Positions 2,081-59,226 of a stretch of 64,000 nt of DNA are shown in pieces (the stretch's first letter is position 1; the number at the start of each line of letters is the position of its first letter). The DNA lies in IMG/VR virus record IMGVR_UViG_3300013126_000013; one strand, 5' to 3'. The translations under genes and the position numbers were made by a program. The DNA is from a virus (Duplodnaviria; Heunggongvirae; Uroviricota; Caudoviricetes). The notes beneath the pieces are model-generated. The model was not told where the DNA came from, ran no database searches, and saw only the letters and a list, made by a program, of their open reading frames with translations.

Positions 2081-2428
2081 TCATTCCTTGTCTTCAATTC
2101 CAATGATGTCGAATTTGACCAGAAGAGAAAGAATATTCGCAGAGCCTTGGATGATAAGCCATGGTAGAGCAACAAATGCAATATAGCTGTATGGGCTCAT
2201 GTATACGAGAGTTGCCATAGTGATATAAATCATGTACACCATCAACATATGCAAGACGTCAAAGTCAGTTGAAAGGGCAGCTTGAGACAAACCGGTAAAC
2301 AAGCGAACCGCTACAAAATAGAACATTGAAGCAAGTAAAGCAAGAAAGAAGGCAGTTACTTCAATCGCTCCTTCGATTCCATAAGTGGCAGCCAAAGCAG
2401 CTGCCACTCCAAGATACTTAATCATCAT
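2081..2428 (-). CDS. small 4-TM membrane protein (holin-like, next to hydrolase)
   Basis: 115 aa, hydrophobic segments throughout; position adjacent to cell-wall hydrolase. Confidence 0.45.
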   Translation of the reverse strand: MMIKYLGVAAALAATYGIEGAIEVTAFFLALLASMFYFVAVRLFTGLSQAALSTDFDVLHMLMVYMIYITMATLVYMSPYSYIAFVALPWLIIQGSANILSLLVKFDIIGIEDKE

Positions 2429-2433
2429 TTGCT

Positions 2434-3576: not shown

Positions 3577-3589
3577 GATTTAGCCATTC

Positions 3590-3630
3590 ACTTATTCTAT
3601 ATAAGTCAGTTAAGGGGAAATGTCAACCCC
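3590..3630 (-). promoter_or_regulatory. phage promoter (TTGACAT family)
   Basis: revcomp GGGGTTGACATTTCCCCTTAACTGACTTATATAG. Confidence 0.6.
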
Positions 3631-33905: not shown

Positions 33906-34022
33906 TCATTTTTGTTTTAGACGATCGCAAAGTTCCAATTGTTTGCTCAACTGGTTTCGAAGATCGTTTGCTTTCCATACTGCAGCCATCCACTCTACAT
34001 ATTCTTTCGAGCGAGTATCCAT
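33906..34022 (-). CDS. small hypothetical protein (38 aa)
   Basis: sub-threshold ORF, AGGAAGGTG RBS, ATGA coupling to nadV stop. Confidence 0.3.
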   Translation of the reverse strand: MDTRSKEYVEWMAAVWKANDLRNQLSKQLELCDRLKQK

Positions 34023-35449
34023 CATACACCTTCCTTTGCACGTTCACGAATAGTTGCGAAGTCGTCTTCGATCAAAATAATACCGTTGTGGTATACTTTA
34101 CGAAGAAGGTTCTTTGCTGCGAACTCCCAGACGTAGTCTTCTGGTACAGTATGAATGTACGGGTTTACACCAAAGCCAGCCTCTTTCACGAGAGCCAAAC
34201 GACCCTCTTTCGACTTCTTACCGTGGTCAGTGATTGGATCTTTCGAGAATCCTTTCCATTCGCCGTTAGCGCCTTTGATCGCCGAAGCTTTCATAGCATA
34301 CTTAAGAGTATCACGGTTCCAAGCCTGCAGAAGACCACCACCCATACCGAATGCAATGTTATCGGCAGAAATGTTTTTCGCGATCATATTTTCCAGAATA
34401 ATGGGCAACGACTTCTCGTTAATACCATCACCCTGAATTACACGAATGTAAGGAGGAAGAACTTTGAAACCCTTACTGTTCACGGTGTAACCAAACTTCT
34501 CCATCAAGATCTCGATGATTTCGACTGGAACAGTCTCAGGGTCACCAGAGTCAGGGCGTACCACCAAGGTGCCGCCAGAAGCAATAATCTTATCTTTCAG
34601 AGCAGTACCCCAAAGATCTGAACATGCTTTGTAGATGTCGAAGCTGTCAGATACGCAAGCATAAAGTTTACCTTCACCTGCGAACTGATTAATCATGTTG
34701 TCGTAAGCTTTCACTTCGTCTTCTCGACCCCAAGAAGTGATCGTCGAGTGTTCAGAAGCAGGAATCGAAAAGCCAACGACTTCATCAGTGTTGTAGTATT
34801 CCATAACCCCGACAAGTGCTTCAGCCGTGTCAGTGCCCCAGAAGTTCACGAGGTGAGCCATACCACCAAGGATTGCGGTCTCACTTGAAGAAGCACCACG
34901 AGCACCGAAGTCATGCAACTTAAAGTTGATCTGAGCTTCTACCGGAACGTCAGACGTTTTCAATAGAGCAGCTTTGATGATCTTCTTCATCTTACGTGAC
35001 TTAGTCGCAACAGTCGAAGGGTACCAGACACCGCGCAGAAGTGCAGTCTCGAGGTATGAGGTCAGCCACCACAGGCGAGGATCAGTGTTCACCACCTGCA
35101 CCTGAACGTTGTGAGTCGGCATAACCGTACCTTCAGGAACAGCTTCGATTTCAACAGGAAGCATGCCATCATATTCGTTGACGATAACTTCCCAGCCTTC
35201 ACGGTTGAAAGGTAGACCGTGTGCAGTTACGATCTTCTCAGCACGGTCGACGTCCTCCATCGTGATAGGAGTCGTCATGTAGTCTTTCATGAAAGCCTGA
35301 AGACCGAAAAAGACCGATTCATCTTCGCCACCACGAGATTCGATGTACGAAGACACATGAGTCGTGCCGGCAGGATACTGCACCCACTGTGAAAATTTGT
35401 AGCTGTCAGTGCGGATAATTGCGGAGATTAGATTTAGTACGTTTTTCAT
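34022..35449 (-). CDS. nadV: nicotinamide phosphoribosyltransferase
   Basis: N-terminal IIRTDSYKFSQWVQYP hallmark of NAMPT; 475 aa. Confidence 0.8.
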   Translation of the reverse strand: MKNVLNLISAIIRTDSYKFSQWVQYPAGTTHVSSYIESRGGEDESVFFGLQAFMKDYMTTPITMEDVDRAEKIVTAHGLPFNREGWEVIVNEYDGMLPVEIEAVPEGTVMPTHNVQVQVVNTDPRLWWLTSYLETALLRGVWYPSTVATKSRKMKKIIKAALLKTSDVPVEAQINFKLHDFGARGASSSETAILGGMAHLVNFWGTDTAEALVGVMEYYNTDEVVGFSIPASEHSTITSWGREDEVKAYDNMINQFAGEGKLYACVSDSFDIYKACSDLWGTALKDKIIASGGTLVVRPDSGDPETVPVEIIEILMEKFGYTVNSKGFKVLPPYIRVIQGDGINEKSLPIILENMIAKNISADNIAFGMGGGLLQAWNRDTLKYAMKASAIKGANGEWKGFSKDPITDHGKKSKEGRLALVKEAGFGVNPYIHTVPEDYVWEFAAKNLLRKVYHNGIILIEDDFATIRERAKEGV

Positions 35450-35510
35450 AATAGAGCTCCTCTATTGTTAGGTTGATGCCAACTCTCTCTGAGCTGGGCT
35501 TTATCGGTTA

Positions 35511-36524
35511 TTAGCCGATATTGATAAAGTTGTCGATGATGTGGAAGTGATCCTCAAACATTTTTTCTTGTTTGACCTTGTTAAAGGGCACCCAGAACGC
35601 TTTAGCTGCATCATCAGAACCTTTCACTTTCGGCAGTTCGCCGACACCAAGATCGATCAAGAACGCTTGAGTGATAGTGCGGCCACGAGAAGAACGATTC
35701 GGAGCATCGAAGGTCTTAGACTCTTTGATAGAACCCTTCAGAACAGGAAGGGGAACCTTGATCTTGGTTTCTTCCTTGAGCTCACGGATAGCACCATCGA
35801 GCATTGTCTCTTCTTGGTTCAAGAACCCGCCCGGAAGAGCCCAAAGCCCTTTGCCCGGCATGTCACCGCGCTCGACAAGAAGGATGTGACCCGATTGTAC
35901 AACGACCGCGTCGACAGTCATGAACGTCGGAGGGAATGGCGCAGCTTTCCAAGCCTCCTTGTACTTCTTGACCATTTGGTATTCGTTGTACAGAGTATCC
36001 CAGTAGCCACCGATCTTTCCACCTGCGATGATGACTCTGTTCATTGCATCACGTGCAGCGTCAGGCATATTGTCAAGAGCCGCGAAGTCGCAGTTGCCGA
36101 ACAGGCAGTTACGAATGTCGGTCGCGTTGATACCACCAACGTCTGCGACTTCCACGTGGTTCTTCCAACGCGGGAAGATTTCCAAGTAGTAGCTGGTGCT
36201 ATCCTTCGAGTGACCGATCAGACCGATGTCTTCAGCATCAGGCACAGTGGATTCAACGATTCGCATAATCGCATTGATCCACTTGTTATCATCATACGGG
36301 TAGTCAGAGACTGGAACGACTTTTACACGATCAGTCGGGAACACCGCTTCGATCATCGCCTTGCGTTCTTGGAATGTAAAAGGATTTCGAATGTTGCGAG
36401 CTGCGAAACTGGAACCGACGACTACGACGACTTCCTTTGCTTGCTCAAGCGCGGCTTCGATAACCGCTTTGTGTCCATTGTGGAAGGGCTGGAACCGCCC
36501 GATAAAAACGAGTGCGTCACGCAT
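35511..36524 (-). CDS. natV: bifunctional NMN adenylyltransferase / Nudix hydrolase
   Basis: FIGRFQPFHNGH (H/T)xGH motif; Nudix box GGFLNQEETMLDGAIRELKEETKI; start at MRDALVFIG (AAGGAG RBS). Confidence 0.8.
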   Translation of the reverse strand: MRDALVFIGRFQPFHNGHKAVIEAALEQAKEVVVVVGSSFAARNIRNPFTFQERKAMIEAVFPTDRVKVVPVSDYPYDDNKWINAIMRIVESTVPDAEDIGLIGHSKDSTSYYLEIFPRWKNHVEVADVGGINATDIRNCLFGNCDFAALDNMPDAARDAMNRVIIAGGKIGGYWDTLYNEYQMVKKYKEAWKAAPFPPTFMTVDAVVVQSGHILLVERGDMPGKGLWALPGGFLNQEETMLDGAIRELKEETKIKVPLPVLKGSIKESKTFDAPNRSSRGRTITQAFLIDLGVGELPKVKGSDDAAKAFWVPFNKVKQEKMFEDHFHIIDNFINIG

Positions 36525-36564
36525 GCAAAAACTCCTTTTGCTACTATGTAGGAGCCTCACTGGC

Positions 36565-42528: not shown

Positions 42529-43209
42529 ATGAAACATTTAGCTATTACAGCAGTGCTTGTAATGGTGCCTACTATAACATTTGCAGATCAGTCTGTGTAT
42601 ATTGACCAGGCAGGTGAAAATTTAAACGCTACTATTATCCAAAAATTGGGTGATAACAACACGATCGGTGATATCACTGCCACCGACAAATACTTCTATC
42701 TCGACGGTGATGACATGACACTCACCTTCGGAATGGAAGGTGATGCAAACAAATTAATCGGTTCGATCTCTGGTGATACCTTAGATTTTACTTTGTCACA
42801 AATTGGTGATAACAACCTATTTGAGATTTATGCTACGCTTTCATCAAGCAGTTCTTTGTTGTGGAATATTATTGGAAGCGCGAATGAAGTGTACCTCAAC
42901 ATGGGCCAAGTAGTAAGCGCTGAATATACAACGCTTGATTACAACATAACCGGCAATGACAATATCTTCAATATTGGTATTGATGCCGATGGGGCTACTC
43001 ATACTGTTGAGTTAACCGGTAATAGTAATGAATATACAATTACTCAAACTGGGTACGGGAGTTCATTAGAAGGTCACCTCATCACTGTCGATGCTACTGG
43101 CAACTTCAATAGTGTAACTATTCTGCAAGAAACTACAACTGCGCAATCGATCGTTAATATGGTGACCAATGGCTCGAATCAGGTTATTAGCATTACTCAG
43201 TCTGATTAA
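42529..43209 (+). CDS. secreted curlin-like repeat protein (putative amyloid subunit)
   Basis: signal peptide; imperfect repeats ..ITQ.G..N.. (TITQTGYGSS, ISITQSD, TIIQKLGDNN), Gln/Asn/Gly-rich. Confidence 0.5.
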   Translation: MKHLAITAVLVMVPTITFADQSVYIDQAGENLNATIIQKLGDNNTIGDITATDKYFYLDGDDMTLTFGMEGDANKLIGSISGDTLDFTLSQIGDNNLFEIYATLSSSSSLLWNIIGSANEVYLNMGQVVSAEYTTLDYNITGNDNIFNIGIDADGATHTVELTGNSNEYTITQTGYGSSLEGHLITVDATGNFNSVTILQETTTAQSIVNMVTNGSNQVISITQSD

Positions 43210-44215
43210 TCTGATTGCTGCACCATCGATAGCTGGCATTGGAGAAATAACTGAGTATAGTGGAACTGGGATGGTCGCGCGCTCTGAAGAAGAGATTAAC
43301 GCCGACCTCTCATTGCCTATTGAAATGAACGATTATATCCAGACTGCCAAAGGTGTTATTGGTATTACCTTTGATGATGAGACACAAATAAAAGTATCAG
43401 AACACTCTGAACTAACTATCGACGATTTTGTATATGACCCGAATACAAGTCAAGGGTCTCTTGGCCTCAAGGTTGCGATGGGTACCGTGAAATATGCTTC
43501 AGGAAATATTGCTCACTCGGATCCAGACAGCGTTGATATTGAAACTCCTTCAGCCACAATTGCTGTTCGTGGCACAGCATTCACTATGACGGTTGATGAA
43601 CTCGGTAAATCACTTATAATACTTGTTCCGAATATAGACGGATCTGTCGGTTCAATCGAAGTTTCAAACGATGTCGGGTTCGTTGTGCTAAACCGAGCAT
43701 TTGAATCTGTTCGTGTTAGCTCTCGAGATTCTGCTCCATCAAAACCAGTTATAGTTTCTATTGATGAAAGCAATATCGACAACTATATGATTATTAGTCC
43801 ACCGAAAGAAGTAAAGGATAAGATTATCAGAGAAGCAAAGAGTAGCAATCCTCTCGACGAAAACGAATTAGATGTTGACTTACTTAAAGCAGATTTTCTT
43901 GATACTCGAGATCTTGAATTTAACGAGCTCGATGTCACCTATCTCGATGAAGTTATCTTCGAAGACCTTTTAAGATCTACGGATGCATCTGCTACCGACG
44001 GCGTAGTTCCTGGCCAGAATTCAGTAACTGGTGTTATAACAATTAAACAAGATCCTTATGTTGAAGTAATAAGAATGAATTCAAAGGGTACATTTGGTAT
44101 TAAGTTTGTAGAAGAGACCGGTATAAACACGACTGCAACACAAGGCGAAATAACGATAAATATTATTACTCTCGATGGGCAATCAAGCAATTTTATAAGG
44201 TTAATACAACAATGA
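43169..44215 (+). CDS. FecR-domain-like secreted protein
   Basis: signal peptide; TPSATIAVRGTAFTM-type FecR motif. Confidence 0.45.
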   Translation: MARIRLLALLSLINLIAAPSIAGIGEITEYSGTGMVARSEEEINADLSLPIEMNDYIQTAKGVIGITFDDETQIKVSEHSELTIDDFVYDPNTSQGSLGLKVAMGTVKYASGNIAHSDPDSVDIETPSATIAVRGTAFTMTVDELGKSLIILVPNIDGSVGSIEVSNDVGFVVLNRAFESVRVSSRDSAPSKPVIVSIDESNIDNYMIISPPKEVKDKIIREAKSSNPLDENELDVDLLKADFLDTRDLEFNELDVTYLDEVIFEDLLRSTDASATDGVVPGQNSVTGVITIKQDPYVEVIRMNSKGTFGIKFVEETGINTTATQGEITINIITLDGQSSNFIRLIQQ

Positions 44216-46212
44216 AAATATTATTATCGCCGATGTGGGCAATCATTACAACCGCCGCTTTGACTTGGTTGACTCTATCAAATCCTACATTTCTACAAAA
44301 CGTCGAACTAAAACTCTTTGATCAGATGATTATTCAAGAGCCAATCAAAAACACCGACGCAGTTCTTGTCGATATATCAGAAAAGACACTTGACAAATAC
44401 GGGCAGTTTCCGTTCCCACGTGACACATACGCAGATATCATTACGCGATTAAGAGAATCAAACGCCGGTGTAATCGTACTTAACCTATCTTTCCCTGAAG
44501 AAGATAGAACTGGCAAAGATAGTAAATTCATCGAGGTACTTCCTCAGGGTGTAATACTTGCACACTTTCCATCTGAGAAGACTGAAGGAAGAGCTGCATA
44601 TGCTACGGGCATCGCAGAGGTCGGCGTTCCTGCTTCTAACTTTGTGCCTCGATATAAAGGCATAGCTGCGAACCTTCCACAATACGAATCAGCTGCTTCT
44701 GGCATCGGTATCGCAAACACTTTACCGGAAATAGACGGTGTTGTTCGTCGGCTTCCTATGATATCTGCAGTCGACGATAAACTATATCCTTCAATTGTTC
44801 TTGAAATATTTAAAGCTTACGCTGGTACTAACACGTATCAGATCAAGTCTTCTGATTTTGGTGTTGAGGCTGTTCGAGTAAAAGGATTTGATGCCATTAA
44901 AACTGACCAGTTATCTCGTATCTGGATCAATCCAAACTTTACGTTCCAACGATATGACGCTGCTGATAACTTTCCAGATCTTATGGGTGCTACAGTCTTT
45001 ATCGGTGTAACGGCTGAAGGTATATCCAATCCGGTTCCAACTGCAGCCGGAGCGTCATACGGTCATGATGTAGTAGCAAAAGCTTTTGCATCAGTAACAA
45101 GTGGTTACAACATTGTAACACCAATGGAAAGTGAACTATATAAGTTAGCTGCTATCATTGGTCTCGGGCTTGTGATCGTGTTAAGTAGTTATATAAGATT
45201 CGGCTGGGCACTTCCGATTATTCTTGTGATTGGTGCAATTGCCTATCCATTCTATCTGTTTGCTACTAGCTCGATTCTCATCAACACTGCAATTCCTGCA
45301 CTTATGTCGATTCTTGTCTTTGCTCATGTATACGGTGTAAAGTATGGCCAAGAATACTTCGCGAAGATGCAAATCAAGAAACAGTTTGGTACTTACCTAT
45401 CTCCAGCAATGGTTGAAAAACTACAAAAGAATCCTGATCTACTTAAGCTCGGTGGCGAGACTCGCGAACTCTCGATTATGTTTACAGACGTTCGTGGATT
45501 TACGACGATCTCTGAACATTACGGCGAAAACGTACAAGGGTTAACTCAAATCATGAATCGTTATATGACAGCCATGACTGCTAAGATTCTTGAGAATGAA
45601 GGTACTCTTGACAAATACATCGGCGACGCACAGATGGCGTTTTGGAATGCTCCACTTGACGACTCTCAACATGCAAAGAACGCAGTAAGAACTGCGCTTG
45701 CTATGCTCGAAGACTTGGAGAAGTTCAATGAAGAAATTGCTCAAGAAGGCGTGCCGGCTTTTGGAATGGGACTTGGGATTAATACTGCTCATGTGGTTGT
45801 GGGCAATATGGGTTCTTCTCAGCGTTTTGATTATACTTGCTTAGGCGACGGTGTTAACCTTGCTTCTCGTCTCGAAGGGCAGTCAAAACCATATGGCGTA
45901 AAGATGATTCTTGGTCCTGTGACTGCTGAACAGGTGAGAGACGAATTTGACGTATGCGAACTAGATTGTATAGCTGTGAAGGGTAAGACAGTTGGTGCAA
46001 AGATCTACACCATCCATAAGCAAACGGATGAACACAAAGCCTTCTTAAGAAGCTACTATGATGGCGATTGGGCTACTGCTATATATCGCTTAGAAAAGGC
46101 ACGAGCAATATCGCCGGGTCTTAGCACATATTACGATGCAATGTACGATCGTATTCAAAGCGGCAAAGCTCCAGCAAATTGGGATGGTACTTACCGCTCA
46201 AACTCAAAGTAA
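44212..46212 (+). CDS. CHASE2-sensor membrane adenylate/guanylate cyclase
   Basis: N-terminal TM + periplasmic CHASE2-like domain, TM bundle, class III cyclase core (SIMFTDVRGFTTISE..CLGDGVNLASRLEG). Confidence 0.75.
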   Translation: MKILLSPMWAIITTAALTWLTLSNPTFLQNVELKLFDQMIIQEPIKNTDAVLVDISEKTLDKYGQFPFPRDTYADIITRLRESNAGVIVLNLSFPEEDRTGKDSKFIEVLPQGVILAHFPSEKTEGRAAYATGIAEVGVPASNFVPRYKGIAANLPQYESAASGIGIANTLPEIDGVVRRLPMISAVDDKLYPSIVLEIFKAYAGTNTYQIKSSDFGVEAVRVKGFDAIKTDQLSRIWINPNFTFQRYDAADNFPDLMGATVFIGVTAEGISNPVPTAAGASYGHDVVAKAFASVTSGYNIVTPMESELYKLAAIIGLGLVIVLSSYIRFGWALPIILVIGAIAYPFYLFATSSILINTAIPALMSILVFAHVYGVKYGQEYFAKMQIKKQFGTYLSPAMVEKLQKNPDLLKLGGETRELSIMFTDVRGFTTISEHYGENVQGLTQIMNRYMTAMTAKILENEGTLDKYIGDAQMAFWNAPLDDSQHAKNAVRTALAMLEDLEKFNEEIAQEGVPAFGMGLGINTAHVVVGNMGSSQRFDYTCLGDGVNLASRLEGQSKPYGVKMILGPVTAEQVRDEFDVCELDCIAVKGKTVGAKIYTIHKQTDEHKAFLRSYYDGDWATAIYRLEKARAISPGLSTYYDAMYDRIQSGKAPANWDGTYRSNSK

Positions 46213-47287: not shown

Positions 47288-47357
47288 AATTCGTCAGGAT
47301 CGTTTTGTCCGCTAAGACATCGAATATTATTTAGCGTTTTTGTTTGCTGAACCGATC

Positions 47358-47993
47358 CTATCTCTTACGACTTTTATACCATCCTTCTGGTATAATGTCA
47401 ACATCTTTTTTGATCTTCTTGTTCTCTTTACCGTCCGTTATCCACATCGTGCCGAACTGAGAATTTGAAGAACCAACATTCTTTGACTTACGCAACTTTT
47501 GTATCGTATCTTCTGAATGCTTCTTTCCTGTAAAGCCTCTACTGTTTTTGCCACCTAGAGAAGAATGAATTTTTCTTTTAGTTACAAAGTCATCATCTGT
47601 TTCCATAAGTCTTTTTATAACTCGTGCAGCTGCAGCAGATGCCTTTTTAGAAAAATTTGGATCTAACCTTCTTTGTTCATCTAAAGATACAGACTTTCCA
47701 CTCATGTTCAGATAACCAAATCCACCATTACCTCCTGGGCAAAGGTTGTAAGTGTCTTCTCTTAAGCAGAACTCTTCTGTTACCAACAGAGCTTCTTTAG
47801 CATTCATATCAGCTTCATTATCAAACTGGAAGAGAATTTCTTTCGTAAAGTTCTCGATTCCATGTTTGTTTTGAGCAGATTTTAGATGTTTACCAGAACC
47901 CATGTAACCATCATTCAAGTCTTTGGTCTGATGTTTTCCAATATAGATCTCGCCATTGATTAGGTTAGTGATCTTGTAGATTGTGTAGAACAT
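47358..47993 (-). mobile_element. GIY-YIG homing endonuclease gene (segB-like position in tRNA cluster)
   Basis: MFYTIYKITNLINGEIYIGKH GIY-YIG. Confidence 0.7.
47365..47404 (-). promoter_or_regulatory. phage promoter inside 3' end of HEG, driving tRNAs
   Basis: revcomp GTTGACATTATACCAGAAGGATGGTATAAA. Confidence 0.5.
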
Positions 47994-48403: not shown

Positions 48404-48800
48404 AAACTATTTGTCCATTGTACACCCGCAACGGACTAACGACTTGATAGGGTGACCCTCAGACTGAGTAGTTGAACTTCTGACATCTTTTAATGTTCAA
48501 CTTCTACGTGCCAACTCGTCTTCTCATGGTGTCGTCTTAACTTTATTCTCTGTTTTCAACGATACACCACCAAAGCGCTTGAAGCCCGAAGAGGTGGCAA
48601 CAGCTACTATGTCTACCCGCTTACATCTTTCGAATGGTGCACGTAGTGTATCTATGAAAACAGAGTACTCGTTATAACACTATTTATATTCGGGTCTTAC
48701 GGGTTTGTCCCTGCCCGATAATCAACTGGAACTTCTACCTTCATGATCTCGGATCGTCGTGGTTTTCTTGTTCCTTACTATTACAATCTATACTATTCTA
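48404..48800 (-). ncRNA. ~400-nt non-coding transcribed spacer (candidate small stable RNA(s))
   Basis: no ORF, no tRNA; lies between promoter at 48807 and tRNAs; near-repeats GTTGAACTTCT/GTTCAACTTCT. Confidence 0.3.
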
Positions 48801-51983: not shown

Positions 51984-52051
51984 ATAAAATTTCAGCCGGT
52001 GAATTCTTTTGTACGTGCGGCCGGATCCGTCACAATTTCTGACTAAAGACA

Positions 52052-52124
52052 AAACTGTAATAGGGATCGAACCCATATCTCCCCGCCGTTCCGCAAGGCG
52101 TGCTATCCATTGCACCATACAGTC
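52052..52124 (-). tRNA. tRNA-like gene, anticodon arm non-canonical (8-nt loop or 6-bp stem); anticodon unresolved
   Basis: acceptor GACTGTA/TACAGTT, D-arm GTGCAATGGATAGCAC, T-arm ATGGGTTCGATCCCTAT. Confidence 0.35.
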
Positions 52125-52338
52125 TACTAGTTCGCTTTCTCGGCAAAGACTGCTACTGTAGTTCTCTAGTCAAGGCAATTGCCGCTGCCTATATAAATTC
52201 CTGGGCATCTCGCAATTGGGACTCTTACCCCTGCATCCAAGCTATGACTCAGACCGTGTTTCCCGATACGCCGAGTAGCCCTGTGGCGTATGTAGTGTTC
52301 TCATTGTAGTAGATGTCGACCTCTTCTACAACGTTTTA
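52125..52338 (-). ncRNA. ~210-nt non-coding spacer within tRNA cluster (candidate stable RNA)
   Basis: no ORF/tRNA; GGCAATTGCC palindrome. Confidence 0.25.
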
Positions 52339-52932: not shown

Positions 52933-53010
52933 TGGTGCGGCCACCGGGAATCGAACCCGGTTCTCAAGCTTGAGAGGCCGGCGACCATCGCCAAGTAGTC
53001 CTACGCGAGT
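52933..53010 (-). pseudogene. tRNA-like 3' fragment containing perfect palindrome TCTCAAGCTTGAGA
   Basis: good T-arm CCGGGTTCGATTCCCGG + TGGCCGC A CCA, but no complementary 5' acceptor strand. Confidence 0.4.
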
Positions 53011-53088
53011 TGGTACAGCGTACGGGTATCGAACCCGTCATCTCCGAATTGAAAGTACGGCGACCACCCCATCTAGTCCGACGCTGCA
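53011..53088 (-). tRNA. tRNA-Glu(UUC)
   Basis: GCAGCGT/ACGCTGT A CCA, loop CTTTCAA, ACGGGTTCGATACCCGT. Confidence 0.55.
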
Positions 53089-53146
53089 TAAATTTCAGGG
53101 GCATGATTGCTTTGAAATGCCGAAGCCCAGCGGCATTGGGGTTTAT

Positions 53147-53234
53147 TGGTGGGAGTGAAGGGAATCGAACCCAACATGCGTTACCGCGACAGATTTACAG
53201 TCTGCTGCCTCACCTTGAGGCGTCACTCCCAAAC
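53147..53234 (-). tRNA. tRNA-Tyr(GUA), type II
   Basis: GGGAGTG/CACTCCC A CCA, loop CTGTAAA, variable arm CGCGGTAACGCA. Confidence 0.55.
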
Positions 53235-53239
53235 TTGGT

Positions 53240-53310
53240 AGCGCCAGATGGACTCGAACCATCCCTACGGGCTTATGAGACCCATGTCAGCACCTGCTGT
53301 GTCGCCATAA
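53240..53310 (-). tRNA. tRNA-Met(CAU), initiator-like (GGG:CCC anticodon stem, acceptor mismatch)
   Basis: stem TGGGT/GCCCG, loop CTCATAA, GATGGTTCGAGTCCATC, TGGCGCT A CCA. Confidence 0.5.
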
Positions 53311-53316
53311 TTTGGT

Positions 53317-53390
53317 GTTCCTACAAGGTAACGATCCTTGGTCTCTCGCTTATCAGGCGAACGCTCTACCTTTGAGCTATAGGAACATGT
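53317..53390 (-). tRNA. tRNA-Ile(GAU)
   Basis: GTTCCTA TA GCTCAAAGGTAGAGC, loop CTGATAA, T-loop ATCGTTA, TAGGAAC A CCA. Confidence 0.6.
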
Positions 53391-53392
53391 TA

Positions 53393-53433
53393 ATCTAACA
53401 CTATACTAATTGAAGACGAATGTCAACAACTAT
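53393..53433 (-). promoter_or_regulatory. phage promoter (TTGACAT family)
   Basis: CACTATACTAATTGAAGACGAATGTCAACAAC. Confidence 0.55.
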
Positions 53434-53454
53434 TTTCATAGTACTTAATTTGGT

Positions 53455-53530
53455 GCACTTGGAGAGAATCGAACTCCCGACACCAGGATCTTCAATCCCG
53501 TGCTCTACCGTCTGAGCTACAAGTGCGTTA
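53455..53530 (-). tRNA. tRNA-Phe(GAA)
   Basis: GCACTTG TA GCTCAGACGGTAGAGC A CGGGA TTGAAGA TCCTG..GGGAGTTCGATTCTCTC CAAGTGC A CCA. Confidence 0.7.
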
Positions 53531-53535
53531 TTGGT

Positions 53536-53605
53536 CAGGATGGCGGGAATCGAACCCACGCCGGAAGCTTCCAAGGCCGCCACGCTACCACTACGCTACA
53601 TCCTG
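53536..53605 (-). pseudogene. tRNA-like gene with anticodon arm replaced by palindrome GGAAGCTTCC
   Basis: perfect acceptor CAGGATG/CATCCTG A CCA, D-arm and T-arm present; no 5-7-5 anticodon stem-loop can be drawn. Confidence 0.4.
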
Positions 53606-53680
53606 TTTATGAGTTTGGCTCTACCTCCTCGTAGGCGACTTAGCTACACTTCAAGTTTGCAGTACCGTGAATGTGTTTTG

Positions 53681-53760
53681 CTCGGTCGGCTGGGATCGAA
53701 CCAGCGCCATATTGGGTCTCCGGTTAACAGCCGGGCGCATTACCACTCTGCCACGACCGA
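53681..53760 (-). tRNA. tRNA (anticodon GUU?, extended variable region)
   Basis: perfect acceptor TCGGTCG/CGACCGA, loop CTGTTAA in CCGG stem, T-arm GCTGGTTCGATCCCAGC; CCA not encoded. Confidence 0.4.
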
Positions 53761-53777
53761 GCAAAACACACTTTATT

Positions 53778-53853
53778 TGGCTGCCCCTCGTGGACTCGAA
53801 CCACGGTTTCCTGTTTCAGAGACAGGCGTCCTACCGGCATAGACGAAGGGGCA
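53778..53853 (-). tRNA. tRNA-Gln(CUG)
   Basis: TGCCCCT/AGGGGCA G CCA, perfect stem CCTGT/ACAGG loop CTCTGAA, CGTGGTTCGAGTCCACG. Confidence 0.65.
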
Positions 53854-53860
53854 AAAGTAT

Positions 53861-53935
53861 TGGCTGGGAAGGGTGGATTCGAACCACCGGCCTGCTGATT
53901 CAAAGTCAGTTATTCTACCACTGAACTACTTCCCA
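53861..53935 (-). tRNA. tRNA-Gln(UUG)
   Basis: TGGGAAG/CTTCCCA G CCA, loop CTTTGAA, GGTGGTTCGAATCCACC. Confidence 0.65.
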
Positions 53936-53941
53936 ACATTT

Positions 53942-54016
53942 TGGTCCTGACGGTTGGTTACGATCCAACTCTACCGAGTCCACAGCTCAGCGTGCTACCA
54001 TTATCACTACATCAGG
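53942..54016 (-). tRNA. tRNA-His(GUG)
   Basis: CCTGATG/CGTCAGG A CCA, loop CTGTGGA, GTTGGATCGTAACCAAC. Confidence 0.55.
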
Positions 54017-54022
54017 ATATTC

Positions 54023-54097
54023 TGGTGTACCGGGTGGGGATCGAACCCACGACTTACGGATTAAGAGTCCGCCGTTCTACCGCTGAACTACCGGTGC
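54023..54097 (-). tRNA. tRNA-Lys(CUU)
   Basis: GTTCAGCGGTAGAAC D-arm, stem GCGGA/TCCGT loop CTCTTAA, GTGGGTTCGATCCCCAC, CCA encoded. Confidence 0.6.
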
Positions 54098-54201
54098 ATT
54101 ACTTAGAAGATACACTACAACGGATTCGCACCGTCTCCCCTTTCATTCCGCAGAAACCGCCTACTGACGCTTGGGTGCCTACTAGTGTATCATCAAAGTA
54201 A

Positions 54202-54240
54202 TGGTGAATCCGGTCAGACTCGAACTGACGTATTCCGATT
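54202..54240 (-). pseudogene. tRNA 3' half (T-arm + acceptor 3' strand + CCA) of a split tRNA
   Basis: TCGGA ATAC GTCAGTTCGAGTCTGAC CGGATTC A CCA; pairs 7/7 with 5' half at 55051..55088. Confidence 0.5.
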
Positions 54241-54245
54241 AATCT

Positions 54246-54329
54246 TGGTGAACGGGGTGAGATTCGAACTCACGAAGCTAGTGCGACTGATTAAAAGTCA
54301 GTTCCCTTTGTCCACTTGGGTACCCGTCC
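54246..54329 (-). tRNA. tRNA-Lys(UUU) (12-nt variable region)
   Basis: GGACGGG/CCCGTTC A CCA, perfect stem ACTGA/TCAGT loop CTTTTAA, GTGAGTTCGAATCTCAC. Confidence 0.55.
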
Positions 54330-55017
54330 GTATATCTTCCATTACAGAATCAATATAAGCTTTTCTATCTTGTTTGTCAACTAATTTTTTGTAGTCAGAC
54401 CATTTTATCCGTATTATTTTCCACCCAAGATTTTCAAGATATTGATTTCTTCTTTTGTCACTCTCTATAATGCGGTCATCTAAGTAATGTTGATCACCAT
54501 CTATTTCAATGTCAATCTTTTTTTCAACTAAAGCAAAGTCAAGTTGATAGGTGTGTATTTGATATTGCTCAACATAGTTTAAACTTACTTTATCAAAAAT
54601 TTTCTTCCAGTATCTTTCTGGATATGATAGGCCTTTGCTATAATGATTTAGTTTATATGGTACCATATCTGGGTTTTCAGAAAGAAATTTTCTCCTAGAA
54701 TTGGAAATTTTGTTTTTAGTTTCTTGGGTATGCTTTCGTCCGACATTAGCGTTACGCAATTTAATTATTGTTTGTTCAGATCTAATAGGTTTTGGTAAGC
54801 CTAATTTATTAGCTTTTGTATATTGGTTTTCACCCTTATATCCAGGTTTCCTACCAGATTTCGATTTAGGCTTAGGAAAGGGATTGCTTACACAACGATT
54901 TTCATGTGCTTTATTTGCACCAGGATTAGTAGTTTCTCTGCCACAAAATTGGCAAATAAATAGTTTCATGCTGGAAATCTCCGTTTGTGTTTCTAGAGTA
55001 GGTAGATGTTGGCGCAT
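54298..55017 (-). mobile_element. homing-endonuclease-like gene: N-terminal Zn-finger + C-terminal Vsr/DUF559-like (PD-(D/E)xK) nuclease domain
   Basis: CQFCGRETTNPGANKAHENRC; ..DFALVEKKIDIEIDGDQHYL..; 3' end overlaps tRNA-Lys(UUU). Confidence 0.5.
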
Positions 55018-55050
55018 CGTGACCTACATTATTATTTATACAAACAAAGA

Positions 55051-55088
55051 TTTTAGTCGGGTGCTAAAACCACCTCAGCTACGGATCC
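55051..55088 (-). pseudogene. tRNA 5' half of the split tRNA whose 3' half is 54202..54240
   Basis: GGATCCG TA GCTGAGGTGGTTTTAGC A CCCGA CTAAAA.. Confidence 0.5.
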
Positions 55089-55218
55089 ACTCTTTGCGAA
55101 GCGCCATCTTATCGTTACGGCGTTCCACTTTCTTAGTCTTTCCATGCGCACCAGAAGGACGTTTGGAAAGATGAAGGACGAAAGGATTTCGTGCCTTCGG
55201 GAGTTCCTTATGTTTCAT
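55078..55218 (-). CDS. small basic peptide (46 aa) directly after promoter; stop inside tRNA 5' half
   Basis: AGGAAAGGGAA RBS; MKHKELPKARNPFVLHLSKRPSGAHGKTKKVERR.. Confidence 0.3.
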
Positions 55219-55232
55219 TTCCCTTTCCTCGT

Positions 55233-55273
55233 TACTTACTCAGTTATAAACAGTCTTTTCAGAATGTCAACAA
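55233..55273 (-). promoter_or_regulatory. phage promoter (TTGACAT family)
   Basis: TTATAAACAGTCTTTTCAGAATGTCAACAAC. Confidence 0.55.
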
Positions 55274-55300
55274 CTATTTTCGTTTTCCATAAATATTTTT

Positions 55301-55789
55301 ATGAAATATCTTATTCTCATATTCGCCCTTGCCGGCTGTTCGAACAATATGTTCTTGAGCCGTGTCATACCACCAGTTGAGCCGGTAGATACTGCTGCAT
55401 CTATGATTGGCCTACATGAAAAAACCTCAAGAAAAGAGATTCGCAAATTCATAGGTCTCGACCCAGTTAGGTATCAATGGTGTGCAGCATTTGTCAACTC
55501 GGTACTTCACTATCATGATATTCCTGGGTCTGAAACCGTAAGCCGCCATCCGCTTCTTGCAAGAAGCTTTTTGAAGTGGGGTGAGCCGGTTCAAGAGCCA
55601 GAGTTCGGAGATATCGTAATATTTACTCGAAACAACAATAACTGGCAAGGTCACGTTGGTTTCTATATAGAGTCTGCTATCGTAGATGGTGTCCCAAGCT
55701 ACATTGTGTTAGGTGGAAACCAAGACGATGAGATTAAGTACAAAGCGTACCCAACATCAAGATTGCTTGGAATCCGAAGAATACCTTGA
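55301..55789 (+). CDS. NlpC/P60-like (TIGR02594-type) cysteine peptidase lipoprotein
   Basis: lipobox LAGC; YQWCAAFVNSVLH..GDIVIFTR..GHVGFY Cys/His motifs. Confidence 0.45.
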   Translation: MKYLILIFALAGCSNNMFLSRVIPPVEPVDTAASMIGLHEKTSRKEIRKFIGLDPVRYQWCAAFVNSVLHYHDIPGSETVSRHPLLARSFLKWGEPVQEPEFGDIVIFTRNNNNWQGHVGFYIESAIVDGVPSYIVLGGNQDDEIKYKAYPTSRLLGIRRIP

Positions 55790-55802
55790 TTCTGTTTTCA
55801 AC

Positions 55803-55882
55803 TGCACAATCACGAATCGAACGTGTTTTCTTGTCACTGACTATATAGTCCACTACCCAGTAGCTACAATGGGTTATTGTGC
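55803..55882 (-). pseudogene. tRNA-like gene with anticodon arm replaced by palindrome GACTATATAGTC
   Basis: perfect acceptor GCACAAT/ATTGTGC, D-stem CCCA/TGGG, T-arm CACGTTCGATTCGTG. Confidence 0.4.
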
Positions 55883-55991
55883 ATGTGAAAACAGAATCGC
55901 TTCTGTTTCCAGTTCCATCATCGGGCCTCCCCTAGGAACAAAGCTTAAATTTTCAATGAGCTGGGATGATTGATACGATCTCTTCGATCCC

Positions 55992-56031
55992 GAGTTTTTC
56001 TTCTATATTAGATCGACACGAATGTCAACCG
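55992..56031 (-). promoter_or_regulatory. phage promoter (TTGACAT family)
   Basis: TTCTATATTAGATCGACACGAATGTCAACCG. Confidence 0.55.
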
Positions 56032-56036
56032 TTATT

Positions 56037-56865: not shown

Positions 56866-56904
56866 TGGTGCTCCCGCAGGGATTCGAACCTACGATCAAG
56901 ACGG
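56866..56904 (-). pseudogene. tRNA 3' half (degenerate T-stem) of a split Cys(GCA)-like tRNA
   Basis: CGTCT TGATC GTAGGTTCGAATCCCTG CGGGAGC A CCA; pairs with 5' half 57547..57584. Confidence 0.5.
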
Positions 56905-56977
56905 TAGTTCCCCAGAGACTCGAACTCTGACCTGAAGCGTTATGAGCGCTTAGTGCTGACCTTTACACCAGAGAACC
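56905..56977 (-). tRNA. tRNA-Met(CAU) (elongator or Ile-lysidine type)
   Basis: GGTTCTC/GGGAACT A, perfect stem AAGCG/CGCTT loop CTCATAA, perfect T-arm CAGAGTTCGAGTCTCTG. Confidence 0.6.
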
Positions 56978-57490
56978 ACTTTTTTGTTTCTTCTTTCTCC
57001 AAATTTCGCGAAGATGCTCTTTACGTTCTTCTGAAAGTGGAGCACGTTTTTGGCCTTTGTTTGCCAACCCACCTTTGCGACCAACTTCTTTAGCAGATTC
57101 ACTGTTCCACACTTTTCCGGCTTTTACTGCACCAGCACCACCTGCCAATGAGCGTTTGTGCTGACCGTTTATATAACCTTTGTGTGCAGCTTCTTTGCTG
57201 AAACCACCGTGACCAGTTTCTTCTCGAAAGTTGGCCCACTCTTTAGATTCAACGATGTTGAAAAGTTTGCTAAAGAATATAGCAGTTTCTTTGAACTCGG
57301 CTTCATCTTCAGTAGCCAAAAGAATCTGAGTATCTAGGTTTAAGCCGTGTTCTTTCAGATGTCTTTTCCAATATAGACCTGATCCATTATAGCACATTGG
57401 GTCTCTTATGGTTTTGCCGAGATACTTTAATCCTGTCGTACGATGGGTTTTAACGTACAAATAAATAGTCATGCTGGAATTCCCTTTCAT
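56963..57490 (-). mobile_element. GIY-YIG homing endonuclease gene
   Basis: MTIYLYVKTHRTTGLKYLGKT GIY-YIG; 3' end overlaps tRNA-Met. Confidence 0.7.
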
Positions 57491-57546: not shown

Positions 57547-57584
57547 TTTGCAGCGCCCAGCTCTAACCGCTGAGCTACAGGAGC
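57547..57584 (-). pseudogene. tRNA 5' half (acceptor, canonical D-arm, anticodon stem + loop CTGCAAA) of split tRNA
   Basis: GCTCCTG TA GCTCAGCGGTTAGAGC T GGGCG CTGCAAA. Confidence 0.5.
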
Positions 57585-57684: not shown

Positions 57685-57729
57685 TGGTGTCCCCGGTCGG
57701 ACTCGAACCGACACTGAGATGTAAAATTA
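57685..57729 (-). pseudogene. tRNA 3' fragment (T-arm + acceptor 3' strand + CCA)
   Basis: GTCGGTTCGAGTCCGAC CGGGGAC A CCA with no local 5' strand; possible partner 5' half at 59189..59226. Confidence 0.4.
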
Positions 57730-59188: not shown

Positions 59189-59226
59189 ATTTAGGCAGTT
59201 GCTCTATCCAACTGAGCTACGGAAGC
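59189..59226 (-). pseudogene. tRNA 5' half (acceptor + canonical D-arm + 5' anticodon stem)
   Basis: GCTTCCG TA GCTCAGTTGGATAGAGC A ACTGC CTAAATT; no adjacent 3' half. Confidence 0.45.

What the first reader, a model, noticed from the sequence alone, without database searches (positions are those of the whole stretch)
52933..55882. Three tRNA-like genes whose anticodon arm is a loop-less perfect palindrome
Three elements have intact acceptor, D- and T-arms but no 5-7-5 anticodon stem-loop: 52933..53010 (TCTCAAGCTTGAGA), 53536..53605 (GGAAGCTTCC) and 55803..55882 (GACTATATAGTC). In its place is a perfect palindrome; two of the three are centred on AAGCTT.
The first also lacks a 5' acceptor strand. 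They may be scars of excision or insertion at the anticodon loop, consistent with the HEG-targeting theme. They could also be deliberately non-decoding tRNA-like RNAs, perhaps processing signals or decoys.
Basis: seen in the sequence. Interest (0 to 1): 0.6.

Follow-up and report, generated by a model that had tools for sequence, protein, structure and literature searches.

The report
Three unrelated tRNA look-alikes, one novel
The three "loop-less tRNA-like genes" are three different things: a normal proline tRNA, a glutamate tRNA broken by recombination, and one member of an apparently undescribed family of hairpin-framed tRNA-like RNAs in aquatic phages that resembles bacterial Y RNAs, and only this last one is of real interest.

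Summary
The three palindromes are in the sequence, but they do not define a class.

- **Element 2 (53532-53605, minus strand)** is a conventional tRNA-Pro(UGG). ARAGORN calls it and Rfam tRNA scores 58.5 bits. Related phages keep it, one with a compensatory T-stem change.
- **Element 1 (52933-53009, minus)** is a chimeric pseudo-tRNA. Nucleotides 1-49 are tRNA-Glu(CUC), which is intact in three relatives. Nucleotides 50-73 were replaced in register by another tRNA's T arm and acceptor strand, leaving 3 of 7 acceptor pairs. The intact orthologue already carries 6 of the 7 palindrome pairs.
- **Element 3 (55803-55883, minus)** really lacks an anticodon arm. Its "acceptor stem" is the inner stem of a conserved frame: invariant outer stem UCUGUUUUCA/UGAAAACAGA, a 2x2 internal loop, and a covarying inner stem.
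  - I found 53 distinct framed modules in phage tRNA arrays. All 40 orientable ones are co-oriented with the tRNAs, and a second one lies in this window (48548-48665).
  - Cores vary. 23 of 53 carry a T loop, some in YrlA order.
  - In related phages the modules lie downstream of a DUF2828/DUF7788 protein whose model best matches Ro60.

Neither an excision nor an insertion scar is supported. Real endonuclease insertions in anticodon loops exist nearby and look different.

The parts
53532..53605 (-). Element 2: conventional tRNA-Pro(UGG) with encoded CCA. Anticodon arm GCGGC|CUUGGAA|GCUUC with a conserved C28.U42 mismatch. The palindrome at 53563-53572 is G35 G36 A37 A38 plus the 3' strand of the anticodon stem.
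   Evidence: ARAGORN. Rfam tRNA 58.5 bits. Identical body in L003 and L091. L092 has a compensatory T-stem change, GUGGG/CCCGC to GGAGG/CCUCC.
52961..53009 (-). Element 1, nt 1-49: the 5' part of tRNA-Glu(CUC), comprising the acceptor 5' strand CUCGCGU, D arm, anticodon arm with CUC and variable loop AGAA.
   Evidence: The first 42 nt are 100% identical to the intact tRNA-Glu(ctc) of L003 6408-6449. In-register alignment with L003, L091 and L092.
52933..52960 (-). Element 1, nt 50-77: a foreign T arm CCGGG-UUCGAUU-CCCGG plus acceptor 3' strand UGGCCGC, followed by ACCA (the ACCA end is the same in the orthologues). The T stem is still perfectly paired. The acceptor now forms only 3 of 7 pairs.
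   Evidence: Orthologues have ACGAG-UUCGAAA-CUCGU-ACGCGGG. The exact 24-mer occurs in tRNA-Gly genes of unrelated phage contigs L086-L088 and matches 24 of 27 nt of the L092 tRNA-Glu(ttc) 3' part.
55788..55898 (-). Element 3 as a whole framed module. Outer stem 55788-55800 pairs with 55886-55898. The 2x2 internal loop is CA/GU. The core is 55811-55875.
   Evidence: Fold z-score -5.4. Frame shared by 18 and then 53 distinct modules. On the 18 modules, 97.8% of cells pair and 7 inner-stem pairs show changes on both sides; 0 of 500 shuffles reach this.
55811..55825 (-). T-arm-like hairpin of element 3, CACG-UUCGAUU-CGUG, abutting the 3' strand of the inner stem.
   Evidence: Read from the sequence. 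Identical in L003 and L172. The same placement of a T arm is seen in other modules: L092, L170, L169a and others.
55839..55850 (-). Palindrome GACUAUAUAGUC of element 3. As RNA it can form at most a 3-4 bp hairpin with a 4-6 nt loop. It occupies the anticodon-arm position.
   Evidence: In the L172/L174 homologue only ACUAUAUAGU (10 nt) remains.
55856..55873 (-). D-arm-like hairpin of element 3, CCCA-UUGUAGCUAC-UGGG. The loop has no GG.
55899..56028 (-). Promoter-like TTGACA (56023-56028) with TATAGA (56002-56007), then a leader of about 100 nt. The leader has a covarying P1 hairpin, an invariant UCGAAG, and a small hairpin GGAAACAGAAGCGAUUCUGUUUUC whose 3' half is also the 5' arm of the outer stem.
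   Evidence: 98-100% identical to L003 against a 60-80% background. Alignments A1 and A3. Consensus fold with compensatory changes in P1. No Rfam hit.
48548..48665 (-). Second framed module in the window: outer stem CUCUGUUUUCA/UGAAAACAGAG, loop UA/GU, inner stem GAUACAC/GUGUAUC, and a core of about 78 nt without a T arm. It has a homologue in L174.

Best explanation
The three elements have three separate explanations.

(1) Element 2 is a working tRNA-Pro(UGG). Its palindrome is simply anticodon GG, A37 A38 and the 3' strand of the stem.

(2) Element 1 is a dead, chimeric tRNA. An in-register recombination or gene conversion between tRNA genes replaced the T arm and the acceptor 3' strand of tRNA-Glu(CUC) with those of another tRNA. 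The two acceptor strands no longer match. One further substitution (G42 to U) completes a palindrome that the intact gene already has in 6 of 7 pairs.

(3) Element 3 is not a decayed or scarred tRNA gene. It is one member of a family of 'framed' small RNAs carried in the tRNA arrays of a clade of uncultivated aquatic phages. Each member has an invariant 10-13 bp outer stem, a 2x2 internal loop, a covarying inner stem and an interchangeable head that is often tRNA-like.

Inferred, not shown: the invariant stem is a protein docking site and the head is an effector or mimic domain, so the RNA works like a bacterial or phage Y RNA. Element 3 has the Yrn1-like order (D-like hairpin, short hairpin, T arm). 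Other members have the YrlA order. The candidate protein partner is the Ro60-like DUF2828/DUF7788 protein that lies next to such modules in related phages.
For: **Element 2.** ARAGORN calls tRNA-Pro(tgg). Rfam tRNA scores 58.5 bits. The sequence is identical in L003 and L091, and L092 has a compensatory T-stem change.

**Element 1.**
- It is 77 nt, in register with the intact tRNA-Glu(CUC) of L003, L091 and L092.
- The first 42 nt are 100% identical to L003.
- Nt 50-73 differ at 11 of 24 positions, yet the T stem stays fully paired. This marks a swap from a functional tRNA rather than drift.
- The 24-mer is found in tRNA-Gly genes elsewhere.
- The acceptor forms 3 of 7 pairs. Rfam tRNA gives only 20 bits.
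- L091 has UCUCAAGCUGGAGA, which is 6 of 7 palindrome pairs, in an intact tRNA.

**Element 3.**
- The frame is found in 53 distinct modules. All 40 orientable ones are co-oriented with the tRNAs.
- The inner stem covaries.
- The module is 100% identical in L003, against a 60-80% background.
- It is 96.3% identical in L172, where the upstream 130 nt are 66% identical and the downstream sequence is unrelated.
- Closer relatives L001/L002 keep the frame but carry a different core.
- 23 of 53 cores have a T loop.
- Two permuted members give full-length YrlA alignments of 27.1 and 25.8 bits.
- A DUF2828/DUF7788 gene lies 200-900 nt upstream of a module on the same strand in 11 of 11 loci where that DNA is held. 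The same holds in 7 of 10 close relatives found from the protein side.
- Chen et al. 2014 (PMC4201824) describe YrlA and Yrn1 as a long Ro-binding stem plus a tRNA-like domain, encoded within 4 kb of Ro60 on the same strand, also in phages.
Against: **Element 1.** The donor tRNA was not found in any relative. No second genome with the same chimera was available, so its age and any residual function are unknown. An alternative 3-arm fold exists (mascRNA model, 27 bits).

**Element 3 and the Y RNA reading.**
- No Ro60-like gene lies in the 64-kb window (tblastn). At 47290-47358 only a degenerate copy remains of the stem element that follows that gene in relatives.
- The Rfam YrlA gathering score of 69 bits is not reached by any member. 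Element 3 itself gives no YrlA hit.
- Pfam finds no TROVE domain in the protein. PDB sequence and profile searches find nothing.
- The structure model is only moderate: pLDDT 71.6, pTM 0.55.
- The CGAA / GNCGAAN0-1G motif is not enriched in the cores: 18 observed against 14.3 +/- 3.2 expected.
- Adjacency among close relatives may reflect synteny only. Modules with this stem sequence are absent next to DUF2828 homologues below 60% identity, 0 of 53.
- Cores on their own do not fold better than shuffled sequences.
- The D loop of element 3 lacks GG.
- No expression data exist.
Confidence: 0.65

Rival explanations
1. The frame of element 3 is an RNA-processing or stabilising stalk, independent of any Ro60-like protein. 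A stem of about 21 bp with an internal loop resembles an RNase III-type substrate. It would release or protect a small cargo RNA from the polycistronic tRNA transcript.
For: - The long, near-perfect stem has a conserved 2x2 internal loop.
- Modules sit inside tRNA operons. In several loci a tRNA 5' end follows the 3' arm within 5-10 nt.
- The window has two modules but no Ro60-like gene.
- Established knowledge: RNase III stems flank rRNAs and the phage T7 early RNAs.
Against: - RNase III does not require an invariant sequence. Here the outer 10 bp never covary across 53 modules, while the inner stem covaries freely. This points to sequence-specific recognition.
- It does not explain the tRNA-like heads or the YrlA-order members.
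Confidence: 0.2
2. All three elements are decaying tRNA pseudogenes without function. Element 3 is a dead tRNA that happens to sit in the loop of a conserved inter-operon hairpin.
For: - Phage tRNA arrays turn over quickly, and this window holds several tRNA fragments.
- Cores do not fold better than shuffles: z from -0.7 to +1.3.
- Cores of close relatives are unalignable.
- There are no Rfam hits.
Against: - Element 2 is clearly intact.
- The type-1 module is 96-100% conserved where flanks are 50-66% identical.
- L093 and L094 share an identical core centre with a covarying inner stem.
- Orientation is strictly co-directional with the tRNAs, 40 of 40.
- T arms appear in 23 of 53 cores, in two defined topologies.
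Confidence: 0.1
3. The palindromes are scars of homing-endonuclease cassettes that were inserted into, and later excised from, the anticodon loops.
For: The cluster is rich in endonuclease ORFs: GIY-YIG, HNH and DUF559/REase. True insertions into anticodon loops occur here.
Against: - True events leave the two halves of the resident tRNA 700-850 nt apart, with a replacement tRNA and an endonuclease ORF between them. They leave no palindrome.
- The element 2 sequence is identical in relatives.
- The intact tRNA-Glu(CUC) orthologues of element 1 carry the near-palindrome already (6 of 7 pairs in L091), and the swap begins 3' of the anticodon arm.
- Element 3 is conserved as a unit.
Confidence: 0.03
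4. Element 1 is a functional three-arm tRNA-like minihelix rather than a dead gene. It would have acceptor GUCGCCG/UGGCCGC, a hairpin UCUCA-AGCU-UGAGA, a T arm and a CCA end.
For: The minimum-free-energy fold uses exactly this pairing: -33.9 kcal/mol, z -2.4. The Rfam mascRNA-menRNA model aligns full length at 27.1 bits. CCA is encoded.
Against: The score is below the gathering score of 42.5. No homologue with this arrangement was found in any locus or collection scan. The pairing rests on 7 bp with a C.C mismatch and two G.U pairs.
Confidence: 0.05

Closest known systems
Bacterial and phage Y RNAs: YrlA (Rfam RF02553) and D. radiodurans Yrn1 (Chen et al. 2014, PMC4201824); Yrl1 and Yrl2 of Thermus phage phiLo (PMC12135203)
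   Same: - A long stem is formed by the two ends, and it carries a variable or tRNA-like domain.
- Both D..T order (Yrn1; its 'anticodon arm' has a 6-nt loop and there is no V arm) and permuted T / closed acceptor / D order (YrlA) occur.
- There is no free CCA end.
- They are encoded near, and on the same strand as, a Ro60-type protein (helical repeats plus vWA).
- Several copies can occur per genome.
   Different: - The outer-stem sequence UCUGUUUUCA/UGAAAACAGA is unrelated to the GNCGAAN0-1G / CGAA Ro-binding motif.
- The Rfam YrlA score is at most 27 bits on true modules, against a gathering score of 69.
- The neighbouring protein is Pfam DUF2828/DUF7788, not TROVE.
- Many heads are not tRNA-like at all.
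- The modules are embedded in tRNA operons.
- The window itself has no Ro60-like gene.
tRNA pseudogenes and hybrid tRNA genes produced by recombination within tRNA arrays
   Same: Element 1 keeps tRNA length and register, has an intact T arm and anticodon arm, and sits in a tandem array with 1-5 nt spacers.
   Different: The swap is a short patch of 24-28 nt whose donor is not present in any relative examined. The result is an acceptor stem with 3 of 7 pairs.
Intron-less homing of endonuclease genes in phage tRNA regions (T4 SegB, PMC2330249)
   Same: The window has GIY-YIG, HNH and REase-like ORFs between tRNA genes. Resident tRNA-Lys and tRNA-Met are split in the anticodon loop by an endonuclease plus a replacement tRNA.
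   Different: None of the three flagged elements shows this signature. Nothing is inserted or deleted at the palindrome centres.
Stable RNAs C and D (species 1 and 2) of the phage T4 tRNA cluster (from my own knowledge, not checked here)
   Same: They are small stable non-tRNA RNAs, co-transcribed and processed with phage tRNAs, with partial tRNA-like features and unknown function.
   Different: No conserved framing stem is known to me for the T4 RNAs.

Membership tests
tRNA (element 2) | Cloverleaf with a 5-7-5 anticodon arm, U33, a T loop, and a score above the Rfam gathering score | tested here: met
   ARAGORN calls tRNA-Pro(tgg). Rfam RF00005 gives 58.5 bits against a gathering score of 29. 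There is one C28.U42 mismatch, conserved in L003, L091 and L092.
tRNA (element 2) | Conservation with compensatory changes in orthologues | tested here: met
   The L092 T stem is GGAGG/CCUCC where the window has GUGGG/CCCGC. The rest is identical.
tRNA (element 1) | A 7-bp acceptor stem formed by the 5' and 3' ends | tested here: not met
   CUCGCGU against UGGCCGC gives 3 of 7 pairs. ARAGORN at default settings is silent. Rfam tRNA gives 20 bits, below 29.
tRNA (element 1) | Orthology to a functional tRNA gene | tested here: met
   Nt 1-49 align in register with the intact tRNA-Glu(CUC) of L003, L091 and L092. The first 42 nt are 100% identical to L003.
tRNA (element 3) | Anticodon arm, D loop with G18 G19, and the Rfam or ARAGORN threshold | tested here: not met
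   No Rfam tRNA hit at E<=10. ARAGORN finds it only at the relaxed setting (-ps80), with a 3-bp stem. The D loop UUGUAGCUAC has no GG. No CCA is encoded.
Y RNA / YrlA | A long stem formed by the 5' and 3' parts, enclosing a large variable or tRNA-like domain | tested here: met
   The frame is supported on 18 modules: 97.8% of cells pair and 7 pairs covary. A T arm is present in element 3 and in 23 of 53 modules.
Y RNA / YrlA | A match to Rfam RF02553 at its gathering score of 69 bits | tested here: not met
   Element 3 gives no hit. The best true modules score 27.1 bits (L188 953-1056) and 25.8 bits (L195 158-276), both full length.
Y RNA / YrlA | The GNCGAAN0-1G / CGAA motif at the Ro60-binding site | tested here: not met
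   The motif is absent from the frame and core of element 3. It is not enriched in the cores: 18 observed against 14.3 +/- 3.2 expected. An invariant UCGAAG exists only in the upstream leader.
Y RNA / YrlA | Encoded within about 4 kb of a Ro60 (TROVE + vWA) gene on the same strand | tested here: inconclusive
Y RNA / YrlA | Physical binding to Ro60 | not testable with these tools
   This needs RNA immunoprecipitation or a gel-shift assay.
Homing-endonuclease insertion or excision scar in a tRNA gene | The two halves of a resident tRNA separated at the anticodon loop by foreign DNA, or an indel there relative to intact orthologues | tested here: not met
   This is met by tRNA-Lys(UUU) (54202-54232 / 55061-88) and tRNA-Met (56866-90 / 57563-84). 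It is not met by elements 1-3.

The most novel reading that the evidence does not exclude
The UCUGUUUUCA-framed modules are a new class of phage Y-RNA-like RNAs. They would dock on a divergent Ro60-like protein (DUF2828/DUF7788) through the invariant stem and present interchangeable, often tRNA-mimicking heads. Possible roles for the heads are decoys for host tRNA-targeting defence nucleases or adaptors that recruit host RNases. Their cassette-like exchange between phages would then reflect an arms race.
Probability: 0.3. Interest if true: 0.8.

Novelty: new variant of a known kind. Interest (0 to 1): 0.55.

Why it matters
As written, the finding would mislead. Two of the three "odd tRNAs" are ordinary: a working tRNA-Pro and a recombination-damaged tRNA-Glu.

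The third leads to something useful. A recurrent framed RNA module was found in 53 variants across dozens of uncultivated aquatic phage contigs, with two copies in this window. It is missed by tRNA finders and by Rfam.

If these modules are Y-RNA-like partners of the very abundant DUF2828/DUF7788 protein, three things follow:
- that protein family would gain a function, as a Ro60 analogue;
- Ro/Y RNA biology would extend to a large group of environmental phages;
- there would be a concrete, testable case of tRNA mimicry encoded inside phage tRNA arrays.

This touches the old question of what phage tRNA clusters are for (compare PMC10264068, PMC11464382 and PMC11555353 on tRNA-based evasion of host defence).

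Tried and rejected
- **Known phages.** A near-identity search of the region in GenBank phages found only short tRNA matches. A protein search places the phage only distantly, about 30% identity, near T4-like cyanophages.
- **tmRNA.** ARAGORN in tmRNA mode finds nothing on elements 1 and 3.
- **Small ORF in the leader.** The ORF MMELETEAILFSHAQ is rejected as coding. Frame and Shine-Dalgarno sequence are not conserved in L091 or L013/L015.
- **Intrinsic terminator.** The long hairpin is rejected as a terminator. No U-tract follows it in the window, and tRNAs follow directly in other loci.
- **MITE or transposon with inverted ends.** Rejected. Each copy has a different cargo, there is no target-site duplication, and orientation relative to the tRNAs is fixed.
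- **Cores derived from a specific tRNA.** Local alignments to 330 distinct tRNAs score at shuffle level apart from the T loop.
- **Stability of the cores alone.** They do not fold better than shuffles.
- **Donor of element 1's 3' part.** It is not in the window or the loci. Collection hits are tRNA-Gly genes of unrelated phages with a different discriminator base.
- **CGAA motif.** Not enriched in the cores.
- **Sub-threshold YrlA hit at L184 7965-8076.** This overlaps two adjacent tRNAs and is the tRNA-dimer artefact that Chen et al. warn about. I discarded it.
- **Literature search for DUF2828.** It returned nothing relevant.

Full report
**Setting.**
The window carries a phage tRNA array. 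ARAGORN finds 33 tRNAs, all on the minus strand, between 46950 and 57821. GIY-YIG, HNH and REase/DUF559 endonuclease ORFs are interspersed among them. GenBank phages hold no close relative. A large protein is only about 30% identical to proteins of T4-like cyanophages. Relatives came from IMG/VR and from metagenomes through the CHAP-domain lipoprotein gene at 55301-55789:
- L089, 100% identical, probably the same phage;
- L001/L002/L090, 92-94%;
- L003/L091/L092/L093, 64-69%;
- more distant loci.

**Observation.**
The palindromes are real: 52962-52975, 53563-53572 and 55839-55850. They are not statistically remarkable. The window has 92 palindromes of at least 10 nt against 66 expected, 24 of at least 12 nt against 17, and 8 of at least 14 nt against 4.2. 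AAGCTT is over-represented throughout, 38 sites against about 22 expected.

**Element 2 (53532-53605, minus strand).**
ARAGORN calls tRNA-Pro(tgg), and Rfam's tRNA model scores 58.5 bits against a gathering score of 29. The arm is GCGGC|CUUGGAA|GCUUC, with one C28.U42 mismatch and one G.U pair. The palindrome GGAAGCUUCC is G35 G36 A37 A38 plus the 3' strand of the stem. The same sequence occurs at the same place, between tRNA-Phe and tRNA-Asn (or tRNA-Gln in L092), in L003, L091 and L092. L092 has a compensatory T-stem change. RNAfold on its own prefers a hairpin with an AGCU tetraloop. That is a thermodynamic alternative and not evidence against the cloverleaf.

**Element 1 (52933-53009, minus strand).**
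It is 77 nt long and aligns without gaps to the intact tRNA-Glu(CUC) of L003 (6373-6449), L091 (3656-3732) and L092 (917-993). Nucleotides 1-42 are identical to L003. The anticodon arm CCGGC|CUCUCAA|GCUUG differs from L091's GCUGG by one base.

From nt 50 onward the orthologues read ACGAG-UUCGAAA-CUCGU-ACGCGGG. The window reads CCGGG-UUCGAUU-CCCGG-UGGCCGC. The T stem is still perfect, so the patch came from a functional tRNA. The acceptor strands now form only 3 of 7 pairs. The 24-mer is identical to part of tRNA-Gly genes in three unrelated phage contigs, and it is closest, among relatives, to L092's tRNA-Glu(UUC). The donor itself was not found.

L091's intact tRNA already reads UCUCAAGCUGGAGA. 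The "loop-less palindrome" is therefore an intrinsic near-palindrome of this tRNA, completed by G42 to U. Rfam scores fall to 20 bits for tRNA and 27 bits for mascRNA. I read element 1 as a recombinant pseudo-tRNA. The recombination itself is inferred from the in-register patch.

**What real endonuclease events look like here.**
Comparing the relatives' tRNAs with the window shows four disrupted resident tRNAs.
- tRNA-Lys(UUU) is split between U33 and U35. The 5' half is at 55061-55088 and the 3' half at 54202-54232. A second tRNA-Lys(UUU) (54246-54329) and a DUF559/REase ORF (54298-55017) lie between them.
- tRNA-Met is split in the same way, by tRNA-Met at 56903-56977 and a GIY-YIG-like ORF.
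- Only the 3' part of a resident tRNA-Leu(UAA) remains.
- Only the 5' part of a resident tRNA-Arg(UCU) remains.

None of the three flagged elements resembles these.

**Element 3.**
There is no Rfam hit of any kind. Its "acceptor" is the inner stem of a long hairpin (z -5.4). The 245 nt from 55790 to 56035 are 98-100% identical to L003, while the neighbouring genes are 60-80% identical. The closer relatives L001/L002 keep the flanks but carry an unrelated core. L091, L092 and L093 carry three further cores.

Searching for the arms gave first 18 and then 53 distinct modules in many IMG/VR contigs. One is a second module in this window at 48548-48665.

All modules share these features:
- an invariant outer stem UCUGUUUUCA/UGAAAACAGA;
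- a 2x2 internal loop, YA on the 5' side and GY on the 3' side;
- an inner stem that covaries: 97.8% of cells pair, 7 pairs show double changes, and 0 of 500 shuffles reach this.

The asymmetric loop fixes an orientation. In 40 of 40 orientable cases this is the orientation of the tRNA genes, which argues for an RNA-level element. Core types are conserved as units:
- type 1 (element 3) is 96.3% identical in L172/L174, where the upstream 130 nt are 66% identical and the downstream sequence is unrelated;
- L093 and L094 share an identical core centre.

In L172 the 12-nt palindrome is reduced to 10 nt, so the palindrome itself is not the conserved feature.

23 of 53 cores contain a T loop. They fall into two arrangements.
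- In the first, the T arm abuts the 3' inner strand. This is element 3, with a D-like hairpin and a tiny hairpin where the anticodon arm would be.
- In the second, the order is permuted: T arm, closed acceptor hairpin, canonical D arm.

Two of the permuted modules align full length to Rfam YrlA at 27.1 and 25.8 bits, below the gathering score of 69.

**Link to Ro60.**
Chen et al. 2014 (PMC4201824) describe bacterial and phage Y RNAs as a long Ro60-binding stem plus a tRNA-like domain. YrlA has the permuted order. Yrn1 has the D..T order, with a 6-nt "anticodon loop" and no V arm. Both are encoded within 4 kb of Ro60 on the same strand.

In the related loci a protein of about 475 aa with Pfam DUF2828 + DUF7788 lies 200-900 nt upstream of a framed module, on the same strand, in 11 of 11 loci where the DNA is held. 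Starting from the protein instead, 7 of 10 close relatives show a module, 2 of 12 at 60-80% identity, and 0 of 53 below 60%.

A GGAUCG...CGAUCC-closed tRNA-like element follows the stop codon of that gene directly.

The window itself has no such gene. It has only a degenerate GGAUCG element at 47290-47358, next to a GIY-YIG ORF. The CGAA motif is not enriched in the cores.

The Y-RNA-like mechanism is therefore an inference with real but incomplete support. Membership in YrlA is not claimed.

**Verdict.**
The grouping by palindrome is an artefact of reading. Element 2 is ordinary. Element 1 is a recombinant pseudogene. Element 3 belongs to a conserved framed RNA family that, to my knowledge and by Rfam 15, is undescribed. 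That family is the part worth following up.

Noticed in passing
window 54202-54232 and 55061-55088 (minus), with 54246-54329 and 54298-55017 between them: The resident tRNA-Lys(UUU) is split in its anticodon loop between U33 and U35. The insert is a cassette holding a second, different tRNA-Lys(UUU) and an ORF with the REase_MTES_1575/DUF559/RAP fold. The intact gene is seen in L001, L003 and L091.
   Followed up: yes
window 56866-56890 / 57563-57584; 57685-57715; 59199-59226 (minus): More tRNA fragments. tRNA-Met is split by a new tRNA-Met (56903-56977) and a GIY-YIG-like ORF (56963-57490). Only the 3' part of a resident tRNA-Leu(UAA) remains, next to a new tRNA-Leu(UAA). Only the 5' part of tRNA-Arg(UCU) remains, ending at the anticodon loop beside two HNH-like ORFs. 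ARAGORN finds no intact tRNA-Arg in the window.
   Followed up: partly
window 48548-48665 (minus): A second framed module with the same outer stem and a different core, preceded by its own promoter-like site near 48800. It has a homologue in L174 directly downstream of the Ro60-like gene.
   Followed up: partly
window 55899-56000 (minus); also L001, L003, L091-L093, L013/L015/L018/L019, L172: A conserved leader RNA with a covarying hairpin (GGGAU/AUCCC changing to CGGUU/AACCG), an invariant UCGAAG, and GCUCAUUGAAAAUUUA. It has no Rfam hit. More distant phages that lack the framed module still have it. Its function is unknown.
   Followed up: partly
L090 216-300, L181 799-880, L184 3745-3830, L003 about 2330-2440 (minus); degenerate copy at window 47290-47358: A tRNA-like element sits directly after the stop codon of the DUF2828/DUF7788 gene. 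It has a D arm, an anticodon arm and a T arm, is closed by a GGAUCG...CGAUCC stem instead of an acceptor stem, and its 'anticodon' varies (CUU, UCU, UCC). Rfam tRNA scores it at 43-56 bits, and ARAGORN is silent. It is a candidate primary Y-RNA-like partner.
   Followed up: partly
window 52051-52125 (minus): A tRNA with an 8-nt anticodon loop, which ARAGORN reports as tRNA-??? with anticodon 'gaac'. It could be a frameshift-suppressor-like tRNA or a degenerate one.
   Followed up: no
L004 2503-2590, L014 4487-4572, L025 (minus): In more distant phages the position right after the lipoprotein gene holds another unrecognised tRNA-like RNA. It has a T arm, encoded CCA, and a 5-bp stem that covaries (CGACU/AGUCG in one phage, GAUAC/GUAUC in another) around a 9-10 nt loop containing AGGCGUC.
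   Followed up: partly
window 19373-20638 (minus): A phage-encoded CCA-adding enzyme (PolyA_pol head, RNA-binding domain and HD domain). It is relevant to tRNA-like RNAs that lack an encoded CCA.
   Followed up: no
window 43169-46212 (plus): A FecR-like protein is followed by a 666-aa protein that looks like a membrane sensor (CHASE2-like) fused to an adenylate/guanylate cyclase. The cyclase assignment is from reading the translation and was not checked by Pfam. This is unusual cargo for a phage.
   Followed up: no
window 2434-5754 (minus); 31529-32461; 34022-36560: A MoxR-type AAA+ ATPase sits next to a 707-aa protein annotated as 'peptidase' in cyanophages. Also present are a Band-7/SPFH protein and NAD-salvage genes (NAMPT and NMNAT-Nudix). 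This set is typical of T4-like aquatic jumbo-type phages.
   Followed up: no
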